Below, in pieces: positions 3,528 to 26,082 of a stretch of 26,536 bases of DNA; the stretch's first letter is position 1, and every line of letters starts with the position of its first letter. The notes under the pieces are model-generated. The model made no database searches and had not been told where the DNA came from. It saw nothing but the letters and a program-made list of their open reading frames with translations. Source of the DNA: Thermoplasmata archaeon (GTDB lineage Archaea > Thermoplasmatota > Thermoplasmata > JAGHBH01); assembly GCA_030673205.1 (NCBI GenBank), contig DAOVJP010000001.1, positions 1 to 26,536 of the forward strand, read 5' to 3'. Both the position numbers and the translations under genes were made by a program.

Positions 3528-4646
3528 CTATGCCTCCTCTATATCCACTCTCGTATCCATCCTGCCACCTTCCCCTACCTCTTCTCTACCACTCACTCCC
3601 CCCACCTCTCTACCATCCACTCCCCCTTCCTCTCTCTCCCCCTGGCTCTCGCGTCCTTCTCCCTCCCCAAAGAAGTGGAAGAACACCCACCAGTATATGG
3701 CTATCCACATGATGAATAGGAAATCGCCGAGGTGCTTGTGGACGGCCATGGTGGTGTCTAGGTCCTTGTAGTACATGAGCAGGGCGAGCATCACCATGCG
3801 TAATATGTTTATGAGAAAGGCACCGAGTATGCCTATGCCTATGCCAAGGGCCTTTTTCCTTCCCGATATCTCCATGGGCCAGATGAGGGCCATCAGGATG
3901 AAACTGAACATGATCAGGCTGCGGAGGCCTGTGCACCCCCAATCCACATGGAGGCTGGCGGTCTCATTGAGGCCAAACACCGTGAAGGTGCCTGGCTGTG
4001 CCACGAGATCCTCTGGATATAGGAGGGAATTGGGAGGCAGGGCATAACCGTATTGCGTCGGCGCCCAGCCCGGGAGCGAACCTGCCCAACCGGGCATGGC
4101 ACCGCTGTGCACCGGATACCCTAGTCCACCTGGACCGGCGAGGCGGGTTATGGCGGCGACGAACCAGTCGGCTATGGAGTCGAAATAGGCCGCGGAGATC
4201 AGTTGCAGGGCCTTGAGACTGAAGCTCAGACCACCCACCAGGAGCAGAGGGAGGTATATCTTCTTGAGATTCCTGTAGCCGAAGAACAGGAGTATGATGC
4301 CCAGGGCGAGTATGGTGTAGTCTGTTTGCCCATACCCACCTCCGAATATGCCCCTTGTGCCAAGGTCGAATATGAAGCTGGAGACACAGACTCCCAGGCC
4401 CACCAGGATCTCGTCCCATTTGGGAATGGGAATGTTGTAGTAGCGGGTCTCATCCACTCTGACTATGATGATCGCCAGTAAAGCGTAGAAGAAGAGGTTG
4501 AAGAATCCCTGGTCGGAAAATCCTGGGATGAAGGCCACGAAGGAGCTCAATACCATTGCGAGATAGAAGTAGCTCAGTCTGTTCTCCCGAAACCGCCTGT
4601 ACATTTCAAGACGGGTGTCCATATCCATTCTTTCCAAATATGCCAT
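3528..4646 (-). CDS. Archaeosortase/exosortase-family intramembrane transpeptidase
   Basis: Multi-pass hydrophobic protein with a Cys-Arg-His triad pattern: W-G-C-T-G-L-R-S, N-I-L-R and V-H-K-H-L-G. Glu/Gly-rich low-complexity C-tail. Confidence 0.82.
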   Translation of the reverse strand: MAYLERMDMDTRLEMYRRFRENRLSYFYLAMVLSSFVAFIPGFSDQGFFNLFFYALLAIIIVRVDETRYYNIPIPKWDEILVGLGVCVSSFIFDLGTRGIFGGGYGQTDYTILALGIILLFFGYRNLKKIYLPLLLVGGLSFSLKALQLISAAYFDSIADWFVAAITRLAGPGGLGYPVHSGAMPGWAGSLPGWAPTQYGYALPPNSLLYPEDLVAQPGTFTVFGLNETASLHVDWGCTGLRSLIMFSFILMALIWPMEISGRKKALGIGIGILGAFLINILRMVMLALLMYYKDLDTTMAVHKHLGDFLFIMWIAIYWWVFFHFFGEGEGRESQGEREEGGVDGREVGGVSGREEVGEGGRMDTRVDIEEA

Positions 4647-17919: not shown

Positions 17920-19098
17920 TTACATCTCCACTATCATAGCCACGGCGTTCCCGCCTCCGAGACACAACGTGGCCAATCCTCTGTGGTCGCCGCGGTCCTT
18001 CATGGCATACATGAGGGTGGTGAGCACCCGGGCGCCTGAGGCGCCTATGGGATGGCCGAGGGCCACTGCTCCGCCGTGGACGTTGAACTTCTCATCGGGT
18101 ATTCCAAACTCCTTCTGGACGGCCACGGATGCGGATGAGAATGCCTCGTTGTGCTCCCAGAGATCTATATCCTCCGTGGTCAAACCGGTCTTTTCCAACA
18201 ACTCCTTTATGGCAGGCACGGGGGCCTCCATGACATCCTCAGGAACGACGCCGGAAGTGTGATATCCAACTATCTTGGCCATGGGCGTTATGCCCTTCTC
18301 CTCCGCCTTCTTCCGGCTCATCACGACCACCGCCGACGCCCCGTCCGATATCTGGGAGGCGTTGCCCGGGGTGATGATCCCATCCTTCTTGAAGGCCGGC
18401 CTGAGACGTGCAAGCCTCTCTATGGTGGTGTCCGGTCTCGGTCCCTCGTCAGTATCGAATACGATGGGGTCGGCCTTTCTCTGGGGCACTTCTACGGGGA
18501 CTATCTCGGCTTTGAACTTGCCTGTGTCTATGGCGGCGCAGGCCTTCTTGTGGCTGTTGAACGAGAATTGGTCCAGCTCTTCTCTGGAGAGGTTGTAGTG
18601 CTCGGCGATGCGTTCGCCGGTGATGCCCATGTGGAAGTTGTTGTATATCTCCCACAACCCATCGTTCACCATGGAATCCACCAATTTCCCGTCACCCAGA
18701 CGGTAGCCGACTCTGGCATCTTGTAACAGATAAGGGCAGCGGGTCATGTTCTCCATGCCACCTGCCACAATTATGTCATGTTCTTCGGTCCTTATGGAAT
18801 TGGCGGCGAACATTATGGTCTTGAGCCCTGACCCACAGACCTTGTTTATGGTCGTCGCTCCGACGTTGTACGGTATCTTGGCGCCGATGGCCGCCTGTCT
18901 TGCCGGGTTCTGTCCCAATCCCGCCTGGACCACCAGACCCATGAGCACCTCTTCCACATCTTCCACGGAGATGTTCGCTCTCTTGATCGCTTCCTGGATC
19001 ACTATGGTGCCTAGCTTTGGCGCCGGAGTGCCTTTCAGAGAGCCGTTGAACTTTCCCATGGCCGTTCTTACCGCTGAAACTATGACTGCCTCTTCCAT
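17920..19098 (-). CDS. Acetyl-CoA acetyltransferase (thiolase II, bacterial PhaA/AtoB-like)
   Basis: Motifs NKVCGSG, GGMENM, HNEAF, GHPIGASG and CLGGG. Start placed at ATG 19098 (MEEAVIVSAVRT). Confidence 0.93.
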   Translation of the reverse strand: MEEAVIVSAVRTAMGKFNGSLKGTPAPKLGTIVIQEAIKRANISVEDVEEVLMGLVVQAGLGQNPARQAAIGAKIPYNVGATTINKVCGSGLKTIMFAANSIRTEEHDIIVAGGMENMTRCPYLLQDARVGYRLGDGKLVDSMVNDGLWEIYNNFHMGITGERIAEHYNLSREELDQFSFNSHKKACAAIDTGKFKAEIVPVEVPQRKADPIVFDTDEGPRPDTTIERLARLRPAFKKDGIITPGNASQISDGASAVVVMSRKKAEEKGITPMAKIVGYHTSGVVPEDVMEAPVPAIKELLEKTGLTTEDIDLWEHNEAFSSASVAVQKEFGIPDEKFNVHGGAVALGHPIGASGARVLTTLMYAMKDRGDHRGLATLCLGGGNAVAMIVEM

Positions 19099-19222
19099 CT
19101 GAATCTCTCCATCGATGTCGTGCCTGGTATTCACAATTGCTTGCGACAAAAGGTTACCATGCCTCTTCGCCTCTCCTGATCTGAGAGGCTGTCCTACACA
19201 TGTCAGGGCTATATGCGCTCGG

Positions 19223-19332: not shown

Positions 19333-20121
19333 TCATCTATCCTCGAACTTGGGATGCCTTCCCTCAAGGAACGCTCTCATCCCCTCTTTCTGGTCGTAGG
19401 TGTCGAAGAGCTCTGTCCACCTCTCCACCTCGAACGCTAACCCGTCCTCTATGAAGCTCTCGTGGAGCTGGTTGATCGCTCTCTTCGCGTTGAAGAGGGC
19501 GTGCTTTCCTTTGCTGGCCATAGTCTCCGCCAGGGCCATGACCACATCCTCCAGGTTCTCCCTCGGCACCACGTGATTGACCAGACCGATCTCCATTGCC
19601 TCGTGGGCGTCTATTCGTTTGCCGGTGTATATCATCTCTTTGGCTTTCGCGATCCCCACTATCCTAGAGAGGCGCTGGGTCCCCCCCCATCCAGGAATGA
19701 CGCCGATGTCTATCTCCGGCTGGGAGAACACAGAGCCCTCCGCTGCTATTCGGATGTCGCAGGCGCATGCAAATTCCACCCCGCCTCCCAACGTGTATCC
19801 GTGGATGCCGATGATGACCGGCTGGGGCATGGTCTCCAGCTTCCGGGCTATCCGATGGCCCATCTGGGCGAACCTCTTTCCCCCCTCGCGGTCCTTCGCA
19901 CTCATCTGTTTGATGTCGGCACCAGCGGTGAAGGCCTTCTTGCACGCGCTTAGGAGGACGAGCACTTTGACGTTCTCGTTCCGGCCTATCTCGTCGAGGA
20001 TGCTAGCGAACTCGTCCAGGGTCTCTTCGTTGAACACGTTCAGGAACTTGGGCCTGTTCAGTGTTATGGTGCCTATCCCATTTTTGATATCGACCTTCAG
20101 ATTCGTGGGCTCTTTTTCCAT
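19333..20121 (-). CDS. crt: Enoyl-CoA hydratase (crotonase) 2
   Basis: Motifs FTAGADIKQ, GGGVE and SQPEI..G.IPG.GGTQRL. Confidence 0.9.
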   Translation of the reverse strand: MEKEPTNLKVDIKNGIGTITLNRPKFLNVFNEETLDEFASILDEIGRNENVKVLVLLSACKKAFTAGADIKQMSAKDREGGKRFAQMGHRIARKLETMPQPVIIGIHGYTLGGGVEFACACDIRIAAEGSVFSQPEIDIGVIPGWGGTQRLSRIVGIAKAKEMIYTGKRIDAHEAMEIGLVNHVVPRENLEDVVMALAETMASKGKHALFNAKRAINQLHESFIEDGLAFEVERWTELFDTYDQKEGMRAFLEGRHPKFEDR

Positions 20122-20157: not shown

Positions 20158-21309
20158 TCATTTTCCACTTTTCTTCGTGGAAGACTTTTTGGAGACGCCT
20201 TTCTGTTTCGGCGGCTTTGCCTCTTCTCCCTTCACGCTTGACCTCTCTCTCAGCCATTCGGACACTTGGGGCCACATCTTGGCATGGGCGGCCGAACTCA
20301 CTGAGAGACCTATATGGCCAGTCTTGAAGAGCATCAGCTTTTTGTCCTTGCTAGGTATCAGGTCGGTGAAGGACATGCTCGACTCGGGGGGTACCAGATT
20401 GTCGTATTGTGCGACGATGTTCAATACTGGCATCGTCAGTTTGTTCAGATACACCCTCTTTCCGTCGAGTTCAAGCTGCGACTTCACTAGGAGGTTCTGT
20501 TGATAGCACTTCTTCATGAACTCCCTGTACGCCTCTCCTGCCAGAGGTATCCCATCATTTATCCACTTCTCCATCCTGAAGAACATCCTCACGAACTCCT
20601 CGTTGTCCGCCTTGCCTGTGAACATCACGTACTTGGAGTAGAGGTTGTTGACCGGGTTGAGAAGGAGGAAGCCGAAGTTCAGGAACTCCCCTGGCACGTT
20701 GCCCACCGTGTCCACCAGCTTATCGGTGTCGAAGTATTCTGGCCCGGCCCAGAGGCGAAGGAGACCCTGGTCCGCCTCGAAGTCCAGTGGCGTCACCATC
20801 AATACTAGGTTCCTCACCTTTTCAGGGTGGAGTGCCGTGAACATGGTGGAGAGGGTGCCGCCCATGCAATACCCCAATATGGAGATGGAGTCCAGGTGGT
20901 GCCGGGTTCTGATGAAGTCTACCACATCGTTGATGTACCAGTTTACGTAGTCGTCAAGGGTGAAGTATTTGTCCCCCTCAGTGGGCGTGCCCCAGTCTAT
21001 CAGATAGACATCAAATCCCTCGTTCAACAGCCTCCGGATGACGCTCCTGTCCGGTTGTAGGTCAAGGATGTAAGGCTTGTTCACGAGGGCGTAGACGATC
21101 AGGAGCGGTACCTTGTGCTGCTCCTCGGTGATCGGGAGGTAGTGAAGCAGTCTCATCTTCCCGTCCTCGAATACCACATTCGAGGGGGTGGTCCCCACCT
21201 CCACGTCCGGGGGGTTCAACAAGAGTTTGAGCGCCTGTTCTCTCTTGCGCCACATCTCTTGCGTCTCCTCGAACTTGACCTTGAGATCCTCTCTATCGTC
21301 GGATACCAT
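20158..21309 (-). CDS. phaC: Class III PHA synthase catalytic subunit
   Basis: 383 aa. Motifs PLLIVYALVNKPYILDLQP..S, GFDVYLIDWG, lipase-box GYCMGG, FFRMEKWINDG, catalytic Asp (YDNLVP) and His (GHIG). Confidence 0.95.
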   Translation of the reverse strand: MVSDDREDLKVKFEETQEMWRKREQALKLLLNPPDVEVGTTPSNVVFEDGKMRLLHYLPITEEQHKVPLLIVYALVNKPYILDLQPDRSVIRRLLNEGFDVYLIDWGTPTEGDKYFTLDDYVNWYINDVVDFIRTRHHLDSISILGYCMGGTLSTMFTALHPEKVRNLVLMVTPLDFEADQGLLRLWAGPEYFDTDKLVDTVGNVPGEFLNFGFLLLNPVNNLYSKYVMFTGKADNEEFVRMFFRMEKWINDGIPLAGEAYREFMKKCYQQNLLVKSQLELDGKRVYLNKLTMPVLNIVAQYDNLVPPESSMSFTDLIPSKDKKLMLFKTGHIGLSVSSAAHAKMWPQVSEWLRERSSVKGEEAKPPKQKGVSKKSSTKKSGK

Positions 21310-21343: not shown

Positions 21344-22168
21344 TCAGCCCTTCACCTCTCTATTGTCCTTGGAGGAGTTGACGGTCCGTGCCACCTCGCT
21401 GATCTTCCGGTCCAGCTCGTGGAGCTTCCGATATATCTCGTCTATGTGGTCCTTCGTGGGAAGGCCTACCGCGCTCAGGTATTGCTTCATGGACTGTTGG
21501 CTCTCCTGGAGCATCTCCAGGTTCCGAGTAAGGACATCACCGTTCATCTCCGCGAAGCCTGGACGCCCTATCGCGTCCATGATCATCTTCGAGCATTCCT
21601 CGGTCCAGAGGTCGTTCAGCTCCTTCCACTTGACGGCATAATCCTTATCTCCCCCATCGGAGGCGAGGATGCTCTGTGATCTCTCCCACATCTCCCGCCA
21701 GAACTGGCTCAGATCTTCCAGATGGGCCGCATCCTTCACGGAGAACGCGTCCATCCACAGTTCGTAGAGGTCCTTCTGTCTCTTTATCCTCTCGTTCATC
21801 AGCCCTGTCAACTGCTCTCCCATCTTCGTGGAGTCCTCCGACCAGAGTTGGTAGAGCTCTTTGTAGGGGATGTCCTTCTTGCCAAAGAGGTCGACGAACT
21901 TCTGCCCCATCCTGTCCGAGTATTCGCCCCAGAGCTTCTGCATCTCTTCGAACCCGGGTTTGTCCTCGGTTGACACTTCGCCGAGCTTCTCACTCATCAA
22001 CTGGGCGTATTCTGACCATAGGCCGTACAGATCTTCGTATCTCTTTGCGCCTTCTTTTGTGAGCTCTGGAATCCTGTCGGTGAGGTCTTTCGATAGATCG
22101 AGCCAAGCCTCATAGAACTTCTCGTAGTCCTTGTCGTTCTGCTCCTTTTTGCCTTCGTCTTTTGCCAT
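21344..22168 (-). CDS. phaE: PhaE-like class III PHA synthase subunit with 29-aa internal repeats
   Basis: Immediately upstream of phaC. C-terminal GLPTKDHIDEIYRKLHELDRKI resembles the conserved PhaE C-terminal motif; all-helical composition. Confidence 0.8.
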   Translation of the reverse strand: MAKDEGKKEQNDKDYEKFYEAWLDLSKDLTDRIPELTKEGAKRYEDLYGLWSEYAQLMSEKLGEVSTEDKPGFEEMQKLWGEYSDRMGQKFVDLFGKKDIPYKELYQLWSEDSTKMGEQLTGLMNERIKRQKDLYELWMDAFSVKDAAHLEDLSQFWREMWERSQSILASDGGDKDYAVKWKELNDLWTEECSKMIMDAIGRPGFAEMNGDVLTRNLEMLQESQQSMKQYLSAVGLPTKDHIDEIYRKLHELDRKISEVARTVNSSKDNREVKG

Positions 22169-22207
22169 CTAGACCACCTGGACATGATGGGTAAGGAGAA
22201 GGGGAAA

Positions 22208-23158
22208 TTAGTCTTTTTGCTCGTCCAACTTCTTTTCCAGGTCCGCGACCTTCTTATTCAGGTCTGCGACCTCATCTCGTACCTTCTGAGGGCCAAAGAA
22301 GGGGAACATCGTCCAGCCCTTCTGGAAACCCGCCATTCTCTCGAAGTACATCTTATAGAGGCCCTCGTAGTCGGTGCCGGAGGCCTGCATGGTGTTGGTC
22401 AAACGTGCACCCATCTTCTCGGTCTCTTTGAGCCAGGTGCCATAGACGTTCTCGTAATCGTTCTTTCGCCCGTCGAAGAACTCCATCATGCTGTCTCCGA
22501 ACCTGTCGGACATGGTGTTCCACATGGCATTTATCTCGTTGGTATGGACCTCGTTCTCCGTGACCATGGTGTCCGTGATCTTGGTCATCTTGTCGGTAAG
22601 GTCATTCCACAGCTCGACCACCTTCTCGTTCTCGTTGGGGAGGGATACGAGCCTCGCGAACTGTGTGTTTATCGTGTTCGAGAAGTCGAACCAAGAGGTG
22701 TAGATGTCCTGCAAGGTGTTCTTTTCCGTCCCCTCCATCATCGGGGTGTTCTTCATGCTGTTCATCACGAAGTCCTGGTACATATCGGTCAGTGCTCTGA
22801 TGTTGGTCGTGTTCCTCTCAACGATGTTCTCCAGGCGAACCCCTATCTTGTTGGAGTAGTTCTTCCACACGTTGAACATCTCCGTGTATCCCTTTTCCTC
22901 CGCCTCCTCGTTCATGGGGGGTTTCAGCCTCATCGTCATGCTCTTGGAGAAGTCTTTCCAACCGTTGTACATCTTCTCGTATTCGTTCCTGCTATCTTTC
23001 AGGACGCCTGTGATCTGGCTCTCCATCCGCTTCGAATAGTCGATCCACGGGTCGAAGACGGTGGGGGTGTTTGGCATCTCTGGTCTCTCCGGCCTCTTTG
23101 CCCCGGGGGTTTTGATCGGGTCCTGCGTTCTCCTTTTTGGTGTTCCTGTCTTTTTCAT
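22208..23158 (-). CDS. 29-aa repeat helical protein: second PhaE-like subunit or novel granule-associated (phasin-like) protein
   Basis: SD AGGAGAGG. Basic Pro-rich N-tail, nine W/Y-anchored repeats and a C-terminal coiled coil. Lies between phaB and phaE. Confidence 0.65.
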   Translation of the reverse strand: MKKTGTPKRRTQDPIKTPGAKRPERPEMPNTPTVFDPWIDYSKRMESQITGVLKDSRNEYEKMYNGWKDFSKSMTMRLKPPMNEEAEEKGYTEMFNVWKNYSNKIGVRLENIVERNTTNIRALTDMYQDFVMNSMKNTPMMEGTEKNTLQDIYTSWFDFSNTINTQFARLVSLPNENEKVVELWNDLTDKMTKITDTMVTENEVHTNEINAMWNTMSDRFGDSMMEFFDGRKNDYENVYGTWLKETEKMGARLTNTMQASGTDYEGLYKMYFERMAGFQKGWTMFPFFGPQKVRDEVADLNKKVADLEKKLDEQKD

Positions 23159-23208: not shown

Positions 23209-24027
23209 TCAGATGTACATGCCTCCGTTTATGTTCAATACGTGGCCGGTGATGTAGGATGCGTCATCGGATGTTAGGAACGCCACCGCCTTCCCTATCT
23301 CCTCCGGCATCCCGAACCGTCTCAAGGGTATCTGGGCCAGTATCTTCTCCTTGACCTTGTCAGGTATCCCGCTGACCATATCGGTCTCTATGAAACCGGG
23401 GGCGATGGCATTGACCGTGATCTTGTTCCTCGCCAGCTCCTTCGCTAGGGATTTCGTCATACCTATGACACCCGCCTTGGAGGCCGCATAGTTCGCCTGC
23501 CCTATGTTTCCCATCTGGCCCACGATGGAGGTGATGTTTATGATTCTCCCGTGCTCGGATTCCATCAGATGGTCAAGGAACGTGCTCGTGCAATTGAAGA
23601 CGCCGTTCAGGTTGACCTGGATGACCTTGTTCCAGCTCTCTTGATCCATCTTCTTGAACAGCATGTCCACGTTGATGCCAGCGTTGTTGACCAGTATGTC
23701 TATCTTTCCGAAGTATTTCTCGACGACCGCGCGCATCTCCTCCACTTCACCAATGTGGCTTATATCCGCACGGTATGTCCAGGTGTCCGCGCCGATGGCC
23801 TCGGCGCCCATGGCCACCATCTCTGCCTTCTCCTCGCTCGAGCGGTAGTTCACCGCGACATCGGCCCCCGCCTCCGCCAGTGCTTCCACGATCGCCCTCC
23901 CAATACCCCTGGACGCCCCAGTCACCAGTGCTTTCCTGCCAGTCAGCCTCTGGCTGGAGGCCCGGGTACCCGGGTTCACAGCCGGGTCCCGTGCTTTTAT
24001 ACCCTTCACAGACTCCTCTATGCTCAT
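23209..24027 (-). CDS. phaB: Acetoacetyl-CoA reductase (SDR, probably NADPH-dependent)
   Basis: Motifs TGASRGIG, NYRSS, NNAGI, S..GQ.GN.GQANYAASKAG, PGFIET and NINGG. First gene of the phaE/phaC unit. Confidence 0.85.
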   Translation of the reverse strand: MSIEESVKGIKARDPAVNPGTRASSQRLTGRKALVTGASRGIGRAIVEALAEAGADVAVNYRSSEEKAEMVAMGAEAIGADTWTYRADISHIGEVEEMRAVVEKYFGKIDILVNNAGINVDMLFKKMDQESWNKVIQVNLNGVFNCTSTFLDHLMESEHGRIINITSIVGQMGNIGQANYAASKAGVIGMTKSLAKELARNKITVNAIAPGFIETDMVSGIPDKVKEKILAQIPLRRFGMPEEIGKAVAFLTSDDASYITGHVLNINGGMYI

Positions 24028-24276: not shown

Positions 24277-26082
24277 ATGCCCACATTAAAACAGACACTC
24301 TCATATCTGATATTGGGGAAGAGAGGGGGGCAGAACAGGATACAGATCATCGAACTGCTCAAAGAGCGACCATACAACATCAACCAGATGGCCGAAGTGC
24401 TGGGCCTGAACTATCGCACCATCAAACACCATGTCGATGTACTTCTGGAACATGAGTTGATCAACACATCCAAGACCGGAGGGTACGGAGAGGTATATTT
24501 CCTGAGCCCCGAGATGGAAGAGAACATGGATCTCTTCGAGGGAATAGTGAAGAAACTCGCGAACATCACATCCTCCCCCAGATTCTTTCAGAGCGTGGTT
24601 GAACAGACGCACGACGCCGTCATAATCATAGACACCGATGGTGAAACCCTATTCTGGAACAAGAGCGCAGAGAAGATATACGGCTACAAGGAGAAAGAGG
24701 TATTGGGCGACGCCGTTCCCATCTTTTCATATTCCCGTTTCCTGGAAAAGATGATAACCCAGGCCGTAGAGGGAAGGAAGATAACGGCTTTCGAGACCAA
24801 GGCCCGTCACAAGTCCAGAGAGCTCATCGACGTGAGCGTCACGATAGATGCCATCAAAGATGAGAACAAGCAGATGATAGGATTCTCCATCCTATCCAGG
24901 GACATCACCGAGCGAAAGCGGGCGGAATGGGCGCTCCAGATGTCGGAAAAGCGTTTCAAGGAGGTCTTCGAGAACACACCGATCGGCGTGTACCAGACCA
25001 CCCCTGATGGGCAGATACTCATGGCGAACCCTGCATTGGTAGATATGCTGGGCTTCTCCTCGTTCGAGGAGATCGCCCAACGGGATCTGGAGGGAGAAGG
25101 ATTCCATCCAGACTACCAGCGTGCCGAGTTCAAACGCCGTATCGAGAAGGAGGGCGAGATCAAAGGACATGAGACCATCTGGATGAGAAAGGACGGCTCC
25201 AGCCTGTTCATCCGCGAGAACGCGAGGGTCTTCCGGAACGAGAACGGGAACACGTTGTACTACGAGGGCACGGTGGAGGACATCACCGAGCACAAAAAGG
25301 CCGAGGAGGCCCTGCGAGAGAGCGAGGAACGGTTCAAACAGGTGGCCGAGAGTGCCGGGGAGTGGATATGGGAGTTGGATGCCAGTGGCCTCTACACCTA
25401 TGCGAGCCCCATGGTCGAGGAGATGCTCGGCTACAAACCGGAAGAGCTCGTTGGAAAGAAGCATTTCTACGACTTCTTTGCTCTGGATGTACAGGAAGAG
25501 TTAAAGGAAGGGGCCTTCAAGGTCTTTGAGAAGAAGAAACCGTTCAGGAACTTCGTCAATCCCAATCTGCACAAGAACGGCAAGAGGGTCATATTGGAAA
25601 CGAGCGGCTTGCCGATATTGGACAAGGACGGGGGGCTCTTAGGATATCGGGGGGCCGATACCAACATCACCGAGCGCAAGCGGGCGGAAGAGGCATTGCT
25701 GGAAGCAAAGGAAATGTACGAAACGCTCGTGAGGACCTCCCCAGATGCCATAACGGTAACCGATCTGGATGGGAACATCACGTATATATCAGAGCGGGCG
25801 CTCGAACTCCACGGCTTCGACGAATCAGAGGAAATGATCGGAAGAGGAGCCTTTGAGTTCATAGCTCCCGAAGACCATAAGAAGGCGATGGAAAATCTCC
25901 AGCGGACGTTGGAAGAGGGGGTTATAAGAGGTGTGAAATACACTATGCTGAGGAAGGATGGGACCCGTTTCATCGGTGAACTAGACGCCTCATTGATAAG
26001 GGACGCACAAGGAGAACCAAAAGCATTTATCGCCATCACGAGGGACATCACCGGGCGCAAACGGGCGAAAAAAGACCTCTAG
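24277..26082 (+). CDS. One-component transcription regulator: ArsR-like wHTH plus four PAS/PAC domains
   Basis: 601 aa. N-terminus RGGQNRIQIIELL.ERPYNINQMAEVLGLNYRTIKHHVDVL. Four PAS repeats, each ending in a DITER/EH/GR(K) motif; no kinase domain. Confidence 0.88.
   Translation: MPTLKQTLSYLILGKRGGQNRIQIIELLKERPYNINQMAEVLGLNYRTIKHHVDVLLEHELINTSKTGGYGEVYFLSPEMEENMDLFEGIVKKLANITSSPRFFQSVVEQTHDAVIIIDTDGETLFWNKSAEKIYGYKEKEVLGDAVPIFSYSRFLEKMITQAVEGRKITAFETKARHKSRELIDVSVTIDAIKDENKQMIGFSILSRDITERKRAEWALQMSEKRFKEVFENTPIGVYQTTPDGQILMANPALVDMLGFSSFEEIAQRDLEGEGFHPDYQRAEFKRRIEKEGEIKGHETIWMRKDGSSLFIRENARVFRNENGNTLYYEGTVEDITEHKKAEEALRESEERFKQVAESAGEWIWELDASGLYTYASPMVEEMLGYKPEELVGKKHFYDFFALDVQEELKEGAFKVFEKKKPFRNFVNPNLHKNGKRVILETSGLPILDKDGGLLGYRGADTNITERKRAEEALLEAKEMYETLVRTSPDAITVTDLDGNITYISERALELHGFDESEEMIGRGAFEFIAPEDHKKAMENLQRTLEEGVIRGVKYTMLRKDGTRFIGELDASLIRDAQGEPKAFIAITRDITGRKRAKKDL

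What the first reader, a model, noticed from the sequence alone, without database searches (positions are those of the whole stretch)
21344..23158. Two adjacent pha genes built from the same 29-residue Trp-anchored helical repeat
Hand count: the 274-aa protein has W22, W51, W80, W109 and W138, exactly 29 apart. The 316-aa protein has W38, W67, W98, Y127, W156, W184, W213, W242 and Y271 (spacings 29,31,29,29,28,29,29,29). Shared consensus is roughly Y-E-x-(L/M/V)-Y-x-x-W-x-(D/E)-(Y/F)-S-x-K-M-G-x-x-(L/F). 29 residues equal 8 turns at 3.625 per turn, close to an unstrained alpha-helix, so one hydrophobic stripe could run straight along the chain, as in apolipoprotein/perilipin-like surface binders. 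Only the 274-aa protein has the PhaE C-terminal motif. Inference: a possibly undescribed repeat family of granule-coat proteins, one fused to a PhaE motif and one acting as a phasin analogue.
Basis: partly seen in the sequence, partly recalled or inferred. Interest (0 to 1): 0.85.

Follow-up and report, generated by a model that had tools for sequence, protein, structure and literature searches.

The report
Trp-helix repeats: PhaE and its paralogue
Two neighbouring genes in an archaeal bioplastic (PHA) operon are built from one 29-residue tryptophan-centred helix; this helix is also an apparently unreported building block of archaeal PhaE synthase subunits and has given rise to an unannotated family of probable storage-granule proteins.

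Summary
The 274-aa protein is a genuine PhaE. It has five canonical Trp-anchored 29-residue helix units, two degenerate units and the conserved PhaE C-terminal core. The 316-aa protein upstream has eight to nine units of the same type, a basic N-terminal tail and its own C-terminal zipper-like helix, but no PhaE core.

The two repeat arrays are homologous (hhalign 99.6%). The pair is syntenic in several Thermoplasmata lineages, whose pha loci carry one to four such stand-alone paralogues. All NCBI-named members I looked up are annotated "hypothetical protein".

The main new result concerns haloarchaeal PhaE. The experimentally characterised Haloferax mediterranei PhaE has its only four Trp exactly 29 residues apart, aligned in register with units 4-7 here, and the other haloarchaeal PhaE(-like) proteins checked show 27-29 spacing. 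So the periodicity is a shared archaeal PhaE feature. I did not find it described in the papers searched, and it was absent from the bacterial PhaEs examined.

The new points are the expanded array and the core-less paralogue family. A phasin-like or synthase-accessory role is plausible from operon position, fusion/fission pattern, amphipathic helices and the lack of canonical phasins. It is untested, and one paralogue subfamily occurs in genomes where no PhaC was found.

The parts
23209..24027 (-). SDR/FabG-type reductase (PhaB-like), first gene of the co-directional block examined here
   Evidence: ORF. The same gene precedes the repeat protein in relatives L007, L008, L009, L010 and L011.
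23063..23158 (-). P0002 residues 1-32: basic Lys/Arg/Pro-rich N-terminal tail (pI 11.05)
   Evidence: The tail is conserved in orthologues L007, L008, L010 and L011. It is disordered in the AF2 model.
22307..23062 (-). P0002 residues 33-284: array of 8-9 Trp/Tyr-anchored ~29-residue amphipathic helix units (anchors W38, W67, W98, Y127, W156, W184, W213, W242, Y271)
   Evidence: AF2 (pLDDT 79) gives helices 35-78, 89-136, 145-171, 174-200, 206-259 and 264-279.
22211..22306 (-). P0002 residues 285-316: Phe/Pro-rich turn followed by a conserved heptad (a/d) helix, DEVxELxKKVxxLEKKL. This is the hallmark of the stand-alone paralogues.
   Evidence: Alignment A1, C-termini of family representatives, heptad spacing V293/V297/L300/V304/L307/L311, helix 290-315 at pLDDT ~90.
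21719..22135 (-). P0001 residues 12-150: five canonical Trp-anchored 29-residue units (W22, W51, W80, W109, W138)
   Evidence: The array is homologous to the P0002 array at 99.6%, E 4.4e-24.
21347..21718 (-). P0001 residues 151-274: PhaE core. It holds two degenerate Trp units (W161, W188), the (S/R)PxFA motif, and the GLPTK...DEIYxKLHxLDRK C-terminal helix.
   Evidence: hhalign to short PhaEs: 99.1%, E 1.3e-18. hhalign to H. mediterranei PhaE: 97.1%, E 4.9e-11. TIGR01834 and PhaR_Bmeg matches fall at residues 175-268.
20158..21309 (-). Class III PHA synthase PhaC, apparently intact
   Evidence: TIGR01836 scores 449.9 bits against a cut-off of 365.3. Lipase box GYC148MGG, D303, H332 and RMEKWIND are present. 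The C-terminal tail is Lys-rich (pI 10.5).
19333..20121 (-). Enoyl-CoA hydratase (crotonase family), downstream in the same block
   Evidence: ORF. ECH_1 follows phaC in relatives.
17920..19149 (-). Thiolase (PhaA-like)
   Evidence: ORF and translation. Assigned from sequence features; not profile-tested here.

Best explanation
SHOWN.
- The locus is a class III PHA synthesis operon of an uncultured Thermoplasmata archaeon from a cold seep.
- P0001 is the PhaE subunit. Its conserved C-terminal core is preceded by an array of Trp-anchored amphipathic helices spaced about 29 residues apart.
- The same array, with four units, makes up the N-terminal two-thirds of haloarchaeal PhaE. Here it has grown to seven units.
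- P0002 is a paralogue derived from this array. It has 8-9 units, no PhaE core, its own C-terminal heptad helix and a basic N-terminal tail.
- Such core-less paralogues sit directly upstream of phaE-phaC in many archaeal lineages, in 1-4 copies. They include lineages where PhaE itself is short, which is a fusion/fission (Rosetta-stone) pattern.

INFERRED.
- The units fold into a soluble helical bundle with the aromatic faces buried.
- That bundle can open onto the hydrophobic surface of nascent PHA, as proposed for phasins and exchangeable apolipoproteins.
- PhaE would then tether PhaC to the polymer through this array.
- P0002 would supply extra surface-coating or scaffolding capacity, in effect a PhaE-derived phasin analogue.
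- It would oligomerise, or pair with PhaE, through the terminal zipper-like helix.
For: Homology and anatomy:
- Full-length profile comparison of the two families: 99.2%, E 1.4e-19, 258 collinear columns. Arrays alone: 99.6%.
- PhaE core.
- H. mediterranei PhaE aligns W9/38/67/96 with W109/138/161/188 of P0001 (97.1%) and with units 1-4 of P0002 (89%).
- Six haloarchaeal PhaE(-like) proteins from five genera keep 27-29 spacing. Four Trp all equally spaced arose in 23 of 200,000 random placements.

Linkage to PHA:
- Synteny fabG - repeat protein - phaE - phaC holds in several families.
- Loci carry 1-4 stand-alone paralogues before a short or long PhaE.
- Of 40 sampled genomes of the class with a strong PhaC match, 36 also match the repeat profile.

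Physical properties:
- Most units have a hydrophobic moment of 0.32-0.50 with Trp within 25 degrees of its direction.
- The AF2 model of P0002 is all-helical, with pLDDT 79 and pTM 0.64.
- Sub-threshold hits go to ApoLp-III, Apolipoprotein, Phasin_2 and Perilipin.
- Protein-language-model neighbours are PhaE clusters.
- Phasins are described as amphipathic-helix proteins, often with leucine zippers and in PhaF with a basic DNA-binding tail (PMC5658603).
Against: - There is no experimental or expression evidence. No RNA run holding the locus was found, and the source is a cold-seep metagenome.
- P0002 is 37 kDa, larger than typical phasins, and unrelated to the only characterised archaeal phasin.
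- Nineteen sampled genomes, nearly all in one family (f15), have a single ~390-aa paralogue and no PhaC match. It lies next to a DtxR-like repressor gene. The fold is therefore not exclusively tied to PHA.
- In Haloarcula, PhaE was reported not to stay on granules (review PMC7137286). The array may therefore mediate protein-protein contacts rather than polymer contacts.
- The AF2 model of P0001 is poor (pLDDT 51).
- Foldseek finds only generic long-helix bundles (best E 0.009).
Confidence: 0.55

Rival explanations
1. P0002 is an accessory or regulatory subunit of the synthase complex (a 'PhaE-prime'). The Trp-helix array is a protein-protein module that pairs with the homologous array of PhaE, or with PhaC, and controls assembly, priming or the lag phase. 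It does not coat the polymer.
For: P0002 is a collinear paralogue of PhaE. In lineages with a short PhaE the array is encoded separately but adjacent, as if one subunit had been split. Both proteins end in a heptad helix that could pair. PhaE was reported not to be stably bound to granules in Haloarcula (PMC7137286). AF2 predicts a closed bundle with buried aromatic faces.
Against: P0002 lacks the conserved PhaE core, the only part shared by all PhaEs. Copy number varies from 1 to 4 per locus, which fits a structural coat better than a stoichiometric subunit. Some paralogues occur where no PhaC was found.
Confidence: 0.27
2. The Trp-repeat proteins are general amphipathic-helix scaffold or stress proteins, binding membranes, lipids or hydrophobic surfaces in the manner of apolipoproteins, PspA or BAR domains. 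On this view their position next to pha genes is not functionally specific.
For: A ~390-aa paralogue occurs in 19 genomes with no PhaC match, next to a DtxR-like regulator and unrelated genes. Weak profile hits go to Apolipoprotein and PspA_IM30. The nearest folds are F-BAR and other long helical bundles. Trp arrays with 29-residue spacing also appear inside some 900-1300-aa proteins.
Against: The window's protein and its orthologues sit between fabG and phaE-phaC across several families. Thirty-six of 40 PhaC-bearing genomes carry the family. The array is physically fused to the PhaE core in P0001 and in haloarchaeal PhaE.
Confidence: 0.12
3. The periodicity is a chance or compositional artefact of helical, low-complexity sequence.
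For: The profile search also picked up unrelated helical repeat proteins: poly-HAMP arrays with a 92-residue period and a phage tape-measure protein.
Against: Lag-29 z=8.7, and 0 of 5000 random placements reach the observed Trp chain. The independent HMM scores 32.2 bits against 6.2 in shuffles. The anchor Trp is conserved unit by unit across 15 and 34 homologues. Exactly 29 is the modal spacing across 56 representatives.
Confidence: 0.01

Closest known systems
[quoted passage not shown]
   Same: P0001 shares the C-terminal core and the four preceding Trp-anchored helices in register (97.1%). It lies directly upstream of class III phaC. P0002 shares only the helix array (89%).
   Different: P0001 has three extra N-terminal units, seven in all. 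P0002 has 8-9 units, lacks the core ((S/R)PxFA motif and GLPT...D.DE helix), and carries a different C-terminal zipper and a basic N-terminal tail. The bacterial PhaEs examined do not show the 29-residue array. Short ones (172-199 aa) have a single such Trp helix. Bacteroidota ones (375-494 aa) have 2-3 Y-x-x-W-L helices about 36-39 apart plus an N/Q/W-rich region.
Bacterial phasins (PhaP1, PhaF and others; Pfam PF05597, PF09361, PF09602, PF09650)
   Same: All-helical, with amphipathic helices of comparable hydrophobic moment. P0002 has a terminal leucine-zipper-like helix and a basic tail reminiscent of PhaF, and its gene lies next to the synthase genes.
   Different: No hit reaches the threshold of any phasin family; the best is Phasin_2 at E=5e-4 in one relative. 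P0002 is larger (37 kDa). It is built from a regular 29-residue Trp-anchored repeat derived from PhaE.
Haloarchaeal phasin PhaP (H. mediterranei, 154 aa)
   Same: It occupies the same position in the operon, immediately upstream of phaE.
   Different: There is no detectable homology (hhalign 0.6%). PhaP has a single Trp, no 29-residue periodicity and a very acidic C-terminal part. No AbrB-type phaR gene was seen next to the repeat-protein genes in the window or the archaeal relatives' loci inspected.
Exchangeable apolipoproteins (apoA-I/A-IV/E, PF01442; apolipophorin-III, PF07464) and perilipins
   Same: They are tandem amphipathic helices whose period is a whole number of helical turns, so the hydrophobic faces stay in phase. 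Some are helix bundles thought to open on a hydrophobic surface. Relatives give sub-threshold profile hits.
   Different: All hits fall far below the gathering scores (for example 43 bits against 90). The period is 29 rather than 11 or 22. The anchor is an invariant Trp. The proteins are archaeal and cytoplasmic. This is an analogy, not membership.
PhaR subunit of class IV PHA synthase (Bacillus megaterium, TIGR02132)
   Same: Residues 180-264 of P0001 match its N-terminal half weakly (E 5e-6, 26.5 bits). This is the shared PhaE/PhaR core.
   Different: The score is far below the cut-off of 148.4. No Trp-repeat array is implied, and the PhaC here is class III.

Membership tests
PhaE (PF09712, class III PHA synthase subunit E): P0001 | Profile match above the Pfam gathering score | tested here: met
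   41.1 bits against 25.7, residues 16-258 on profile positions 85-309. The whole-genome scan finds only this locus.
PhaE (PF09712): P0001 | Conserved C-terminal core shared with short PhaEs and with an experimentally characterised PhaE | tested here: met
   hhalign 99.1%, E 1.3e-18 to 11 short PhaEs. hhalign 97.1%, E 4.9e-11 to H. mediterranei PhaE.
PhaE (PF09712): P0001 | Gene immediately upstream of a class III phaC | tested here: met
   A 34-nt gap separates it from phaC, which scores 449.9 bits on TIGR01836.
PhaE (PF09712): P0001 | Required together with PhaC for synthase activity | not testable with these tools
   Needs co-expression and enzyme assays.
Bacterial PhaE subfamily TIGR01834: P0001 | Score above the NCBIfam cut-off | tested here: not met
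   39.5 bits against 154.95; only residues 175-268 match.
PhaE (PF09712): P0002 | Profile match and presence of the C-terminal core | tested here: not met
   P0002 has no PF09712 hit. One of 8 relatives hits at E=0.0037. The C-terminus aligns to the PhaE C-terminus at 7-73% probability only, and the (S/R)PxF motif is absent.
Phasins (PF05597, PF09361, PF09602, PF09650): P0002 | Profile match to one of the four phasin families | tested here: not met
   P0002 itself has none. The best among relatives is Phasin_2 at E=5e-4 and 2.3e-4, below the cut-off of 24.9 bits.
Phasins: P0002 | Predominantly amphipathic alpha-helical protein | tested here: met
   Hydrophobic moment is 0.36-0.48 in 8 of 9 units, above most shuffles. 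The AF2 model is all-helical.
Phasins: P0002 | Localises to PHA granules and affects their number or size | not testable with these tools
   Needs localisation, granule proteomics or genetics.
Haloarchaeal PhaP: P0002 | Sequence homology to H. mediterranei PhaP | tested here: not met
   hhalign probability 0.6%.
Exchangeable apolipoproteins (PF01442, PF07464): P0002 family | Profile match above the gathering score; 11/22-residue repeat | tested here: not met
   Best E is 8.1e-6 for ApoLp-III and 0.0091 for Apolipoprotein among relatives, all below cut-off. The period here is 29.

The most novel reading that the evidence does not exclude
The ~29-residue Trp-anchored helix array is the polymer-binding module of archaeal class III PHA synthases. 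On this reading PhaE is a phasin-synthase adaptor. Its array was repeatedly copied into stand-alone, core-less proteins that form a fifth, PhaE-derived and archaea-specific phasin family. Copy and unit number would tune granule surface coverage and size. The PhaC-independent ~390-aa subfamily would have been recruited to coat another hydrophobic inclusion or surface.
Probability: 0.35. Interest if true: 0.75.

Novelty: new variant of a known kind. Interest (0 to 1): 0.6.

Why it matters
PhaE is essential for class III PHA synthases, yet it has no solved structure (no PDB relative found) and, to my knowledge, its role remains poorly defined. Archaeal PhaE can now be read as a countable array of Trp-centred amphipathic helices plus a conserved core. 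The array also exists as separate genes. This gives a modular hypothesis that can be tested in the genetically tractable Haloferax mediterranei: the four Trp, unit deletions, and supplying the array in trans.

The work also defines an unannotated family that is rare in public data (135 representatives among 1.84 billion at E<=0.001, some of them unrelated helical repeat proteins). It marks pha loci in Thermoplasmata and, in a divergent form, in Ca. Methanoperedens. [quoted passage not shown] Regular amphipathic repeat proteins with an intrinsic Trp reporter could also serve as PHA-binding tags.

Tried and rejected
1. The word-index homology search with P0002 alone found nothing. With the 34-sequence profile it found only one other protein. 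Whole-genome six-frame searches and the exhaustive HMM search were needed.
2. Solved structures: no sequence relative of either protein. Foldseek of the P0002 model against the PDB gave no hit below E=0.009, only F-BAR and designed bundles. No fold assignment was made.
3. The AF2 model of P0001 with 15 sequences was too poor to use beyond secondary structure.
4. I tested whether the C-terminal helix of P0002 is homologous to the PhaE C-terminal helix. The register was the same in three comparisons, but probabilities were 7%, 12% and 73%. This is inconclusive.
5. A unit-by-unit orthology matrix was meant to show whether the array predates the gene duplication. It showed no clean diagonal and is inconclusive.
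6. The window-derived unit HMM does not detect the very acidic haloarchaeal units. Only profile-profile alignment and the Trp spacing show the relationship.
7. The long hits from the big search turned out to be poly-HAMP arrays, a tape-measure protein and large proteins with weak apolipoprotein hits. The poly-HAMP arrays and the tape-measure protein were not counted as relatives; the other large proteins are left open (see noticed in passing).
8. Expression: only DNA runs of a cold-seep metagenome hold the locus.
9. Literature searches for a description of the PhaE Trp periodicity or of Thermoplasmata phasins found none. The library lacks most subscription journals, including the original PhaE papers.
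10. An attempt to reach cyanobacterial or Chromatiales PhaE through a MAG labelled Synechococcus yielded PhaEs like those of MAGs labelled Bacteroidota instead. The classic A. vinosum and Synechocystis PhaE were therefore not examined.
Full report
**1. What is there**

On the minus strand the window carries a tight, co-directional block:
- fabG/phaB-like reductase, 23209-24027
- a 316-aa ORF, 22208-23158 (P0002)
- a 274-aa ORF, 21344-22168 (P0001)
- phaC, 20158-21309 (P0003)
- enoyl-CoA hydratase, 19333-20121
- thiolase, 17920-19149

The gaps between these genes, from fabG to the hydratase, are 34-50 nt, and each start codon is preceded by a Shine-Dalgarno-like purine run.

P0003 is an intact class III PhaC. 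It scores 449.9 bits on TIGR01836 against a cut-off of 365.3 and has GYC148MGG, D303, H332 and RMEKWIND.

P0001 passes the Pfam PhaE threshold, with 41.1 bits on PF09712 against 25.7. It does not pass the bacterial subfamily model TIGR01834 (39.5 against 154.95), which matches only residues 175-268.

P0002 matches no Pfam or NCBIfam family.

The nearest relatives are MAGs labelled Thermoplasmata archaeon. The only runs holding the DNA are from a cold-seep metagenome.

**2.

Aligning the 16 units reproduces the stated consensus.

- The similarity autocorrelation peaks at lag 29, with z=8.7 in P0001 (harmonics at 58 and 87) and z=5.0 in P0002. The maximum in shuffles was 4.9.
- Five equally spaced Trp were reached in 0 of 5000 random placements.
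- An HMM built only from P0001-family units finds eight in-register units in P0002, at 32.2 bits against at most 6.2 in 1000 shuffles.
- The anchor residue is conserved unit by unit in 15 PhaE orthologues and 34 relatives of P0002. Y127 of P0002 is a local W-to-Y change, with W in 23 of 34 sequences. The ninth anchor is always Y or F.

**3. The two proteins are paralogues with different C-termini**

Family profiles align collinearly over 258 columns at 99.2%, E 1.4e-19. The repeat regions alone align at 99.6%, E 4.4e-24.

The C-terminal half of P0001 (residues ~150-274) aligns to eleven short PhaEs (161-199 aa) from archaea and bacteria at 99.1%, E 1.3e-18. This is the PhaE core: (S/R)PxFA, then GLPTK...DEIYxKLHxLDRK.

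P0002 has no such core. Instead it has a conserved Phe/Pro-rich turn followed by a heptad helix, DEVxELxKKVxxLEKKL. That helix aligns to the PhaE terminal helix in a consistent register, but at only 7-73% probability.

**4. The key new result: the periodicity belongs to archaeal PhaE itself**

I fetched the characterised H. mediterranei phaR-phaP-phaE-phaC locus. Its 182-aa PhaE has exactly four Trp, at 9, 38, 67 and 96, each 29 apart. Four Trp all equally spaced arose in 23 of 200,000 random placements.

Other haloarchaeal proteins show similar spacing:

| Organism | Trp positions |
|---|---|
| H. larsenii | 9, 38, 67, 96 |
| Halogeometricum borinquense | 15, 42, 70, 99 |
| Haladaptatus caseinilyticus | 41, 68, 97 |
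| Salinigranum marinum | 13, 42, 70, 99 (also W19, W65) |
| Natrinema caseinilyticum | 13, 42, 70 (also W19, W65, W159) |

Profile alignment puts W9/38/67/96 on W109/138/161/188 of P0001 (97.1%, E 4.9e-11) and on units 1-4 of P0002 (89%, E 2.2e-6).

P0001 is therefore a PhaE whose native four-unit array has gained three N-terminal units. P0002 is a core-less derivative of the same array.

The bacterial PhaEs I could examine lack the array:
- Short PhaEs from Planctomycetota, Verrucomicrobiota and Vicinamibacteria MAGs, and the Rhizobium PhaE, have a single such helix, F-x-K-M-W-x-D-F-A-x-K-M, before the core.
- PhaEs of 375-494 aa from MAGs labelled Bacteroidota have two or three Y-x-x-W-L-x-x-Q helices 36-39 residues apart, plus an N/Q/W-rich region.

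I could not reach the classic A. vinosum and Synechocystis proteins. No paper in the searchable library mentions the periodicity.

**5. A family of stand-alone paralogues tied to pha loci**

An exhaustive profile search of 1.84 billion representative proteins found only 135 hits at E<=0.001, with 75 at <=1e-10. Most are 250-410 aa with Trp every 29 residues. Their ends are of three kinds: P0002-type, PhaE-type, or neither. The NCBI-named members I looked up are 'hypothetical protein', and one JGI entry is called 'polyhydroxyalkanoate synthesis regulator protein'.

The locus architectures seen were:
- fabG - one paralogue - long PhaE - PhaC (the window and its closest relatives)
- two paralogues (~400 aa and ~278 aa) - long PhaE - PhaC
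- one paralogue (310-319 aa) - short PhaE - PhaC
- four tandem paralogues - short PhaE - PhaC (L072)
- in a Ca. Methanoperedens MAG (identified from PMC8561730), a divergent 362-aa Trp-rich protein - short PhaE - PhaC

This is a fusion/fission pattern: the array is either part of PhaE or encoded next to it.

In 301 sampled genomes of the class:
- 55 match the repeat profile and 40 have a strong PhaC match.
- 36 have both.
- 4 have PhaC only. At least two of these have the PhaC match at or cut by a contig end, and a third assembly is in about 420 contigs.
- 19 have the repeat profile only. Nearly all belong to one family (f15) and carry a single ~390-aa paralogue next to a DtxR-like repressor gene.

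These genomes are related to one another, so the counts are descriptive and not a test.

**6. Physical character**

Most units are strongly amphipathic as alpha-helices, with hydrophobic moments of 0.32-0.50. The Trp lies within 25 degrees of the moment direction in most units.

Because 29 residues equal eight turns at 3.625 residues per turn, successive faces stay in phase. The global hydrophobicity spectrum peaks at 100 degrees.

AlphaFold2 with 34 sequences gives a confident all-helical model of P0002 (pLDDT 79, pTM 0.64). Units 1+2, 3+4 and 7+8 fuse into helices of 44-54 residues, and there is a separate terminal helix at 290-315. These helices are packed into a bundle. The nearest PDB folds are generic long helical bundles such as F-BAR domains and designed maquettes, none significant.

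Relatives give only sub-threshold hits to ApoLp-III, Apolipoprotein A1/A4/E, Phasin_2 and Perilipin.

P0002 has a basic N-terminal tail (pI 11.05) on an acidic body (pI 4.9). PhaC ends in a Lys-rich tail.

**7. Function: what is shown and what is inferred**

Shown: the homology, the architecture, the synteny and the amphipathic nature of the units.

Inferred: the array binds nascent PHA, or assembles the synthase on it, and P0002 acts as a PhaE-derived phasin analogue or accessory subunit.

Support:
- its position in the operon, which matches that of haloarchaeal phaP
- the fusion/fission pattern
- the general description of phasins as amphipathic, zipper-bearing proteins (PMC5658603)

Against:
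- there are no expression or localisation data
- P0002 is unrelated to haloarchaeal PhaP
- PhaE was reported not to remain on granules in Haloarcula (PMC7137286)
- one subfamily occurs where no PhaC was found

**8. Verdict**

This is not a new kind of system. It is a previously unannotated variant within the PhaE/phasin world. It also brings a broader point that I did not find described in the papers searched: archaeal PhaE is itself a Trp-anchored 29-residue repeat protein.

Noticed in passing
window 24277-26082 (+); L013:3169-3828 (+): The ArsR-like wHTH protein with PAS domains, divergent from the pha operon, has a close N-terminal homologue (same HTH sequence pattern). The homologue is placed divergently next to the second pha cluster of a genome from another family (G009). 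This suggests a conserved regulator of these loci.
   Followed up: partly
L066:6201-7367, L067:6117-7322, L068:6066-7235, L069:6134-7297: A ~390-aa Trp-repeat paralogue with an N-terminal extension of ~110 aa lies directly downstream of a DtxR/iron-dependent-repressor gene in one Thermoplasmata family (f15). Many of these genomes have no PhaC match. Its function is unknown.
   Followed up: partly
L072:2046-7721 (G217:C54); G009:C7:96577-103403: Some genomes hold four Trp-repeat paralogues around one pha locus. In G217 they are tandem (413, 270, 307 and 283 aa) and precede a 161-aa short PhaE and PhaC. In G009 they lie in two groups on either side of phaC, with a 171-aa short PhaE before phaC.
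   Followed up: partly
P0125, P0150, P0156, P0162 (900-1300 aa); P0133 (2065 aa): Large proteins of unknown origin contain stretches with Trp every 29 residues and weak Apolipoprotein-domain hits. One (P0133) is a phage tape-measure protein (PhageMin_Tail). Whether they share ancestry with the PhaE array is open.
   Followed up: partly
P0068, P0078, P0097, P0138 and others: Poly-HAMP array proteins with Trp every 92 residues matched profile positions 172-262. I take these to be spurious helical-repeat matches.
   Followed up: yes
window 20158-20244 (PhaC residues 356-383); window 23063-23158 (P0002 residues 1-32); P0099, P0111, P0154: Lys/Arg-rich tails occur on PhaC, on P0002 and on several family members; some are long K/R/G/P-rich C-tails. 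They recall the DNA-binding tail of the bacterial granule protein PhaF.
   Followed up: no
L025:2351-3439 (Ca. Methanoperedens LFW-280_3_2); P0147: A 362-366-aa Trp-rich protein lies upstream of a short PhaE and PhaC. Its Trp spacings are 11, 29-31 and 40-45 rather than a clean 29. It is a divergent branch of the family in methane-oxidising archaea.
   Followed up: partly
L059:1420-2871, L064:1405-2874, L065:1117-2601: PhaE proteins of 483-494 aa from MAGs labelled or resembling Bacteroidota carry a Trp/Asn/Gln/Met-rich low-complexity segment with up to 21 Trp in the whole protein (23 in relatives L050/L051). It sits between the N-terminal helices and the core.
   Followed up: no
L074, L078, L079, L080: Several haloarchaeal plasmids carry a MaoC-phaC pair with no annotated phaE; in three of the four (L074, L078, L080) it lies next to a phage-type integrase gene. 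The same flanking genes recur (a SHOCT-domain protein and a 196-aa hypothetical protein). It looks like a mobile phaC cassette.
   Followed up: no
L001:~4009-4108, L002:~4346-4447: Stretches of N (masked sequence) interrupt the P0002 orthologues in two complete Thermoplasmata chromosomes (CP070672, CP070751). Their full N-termini therefore could not be read.
   Followed up: no
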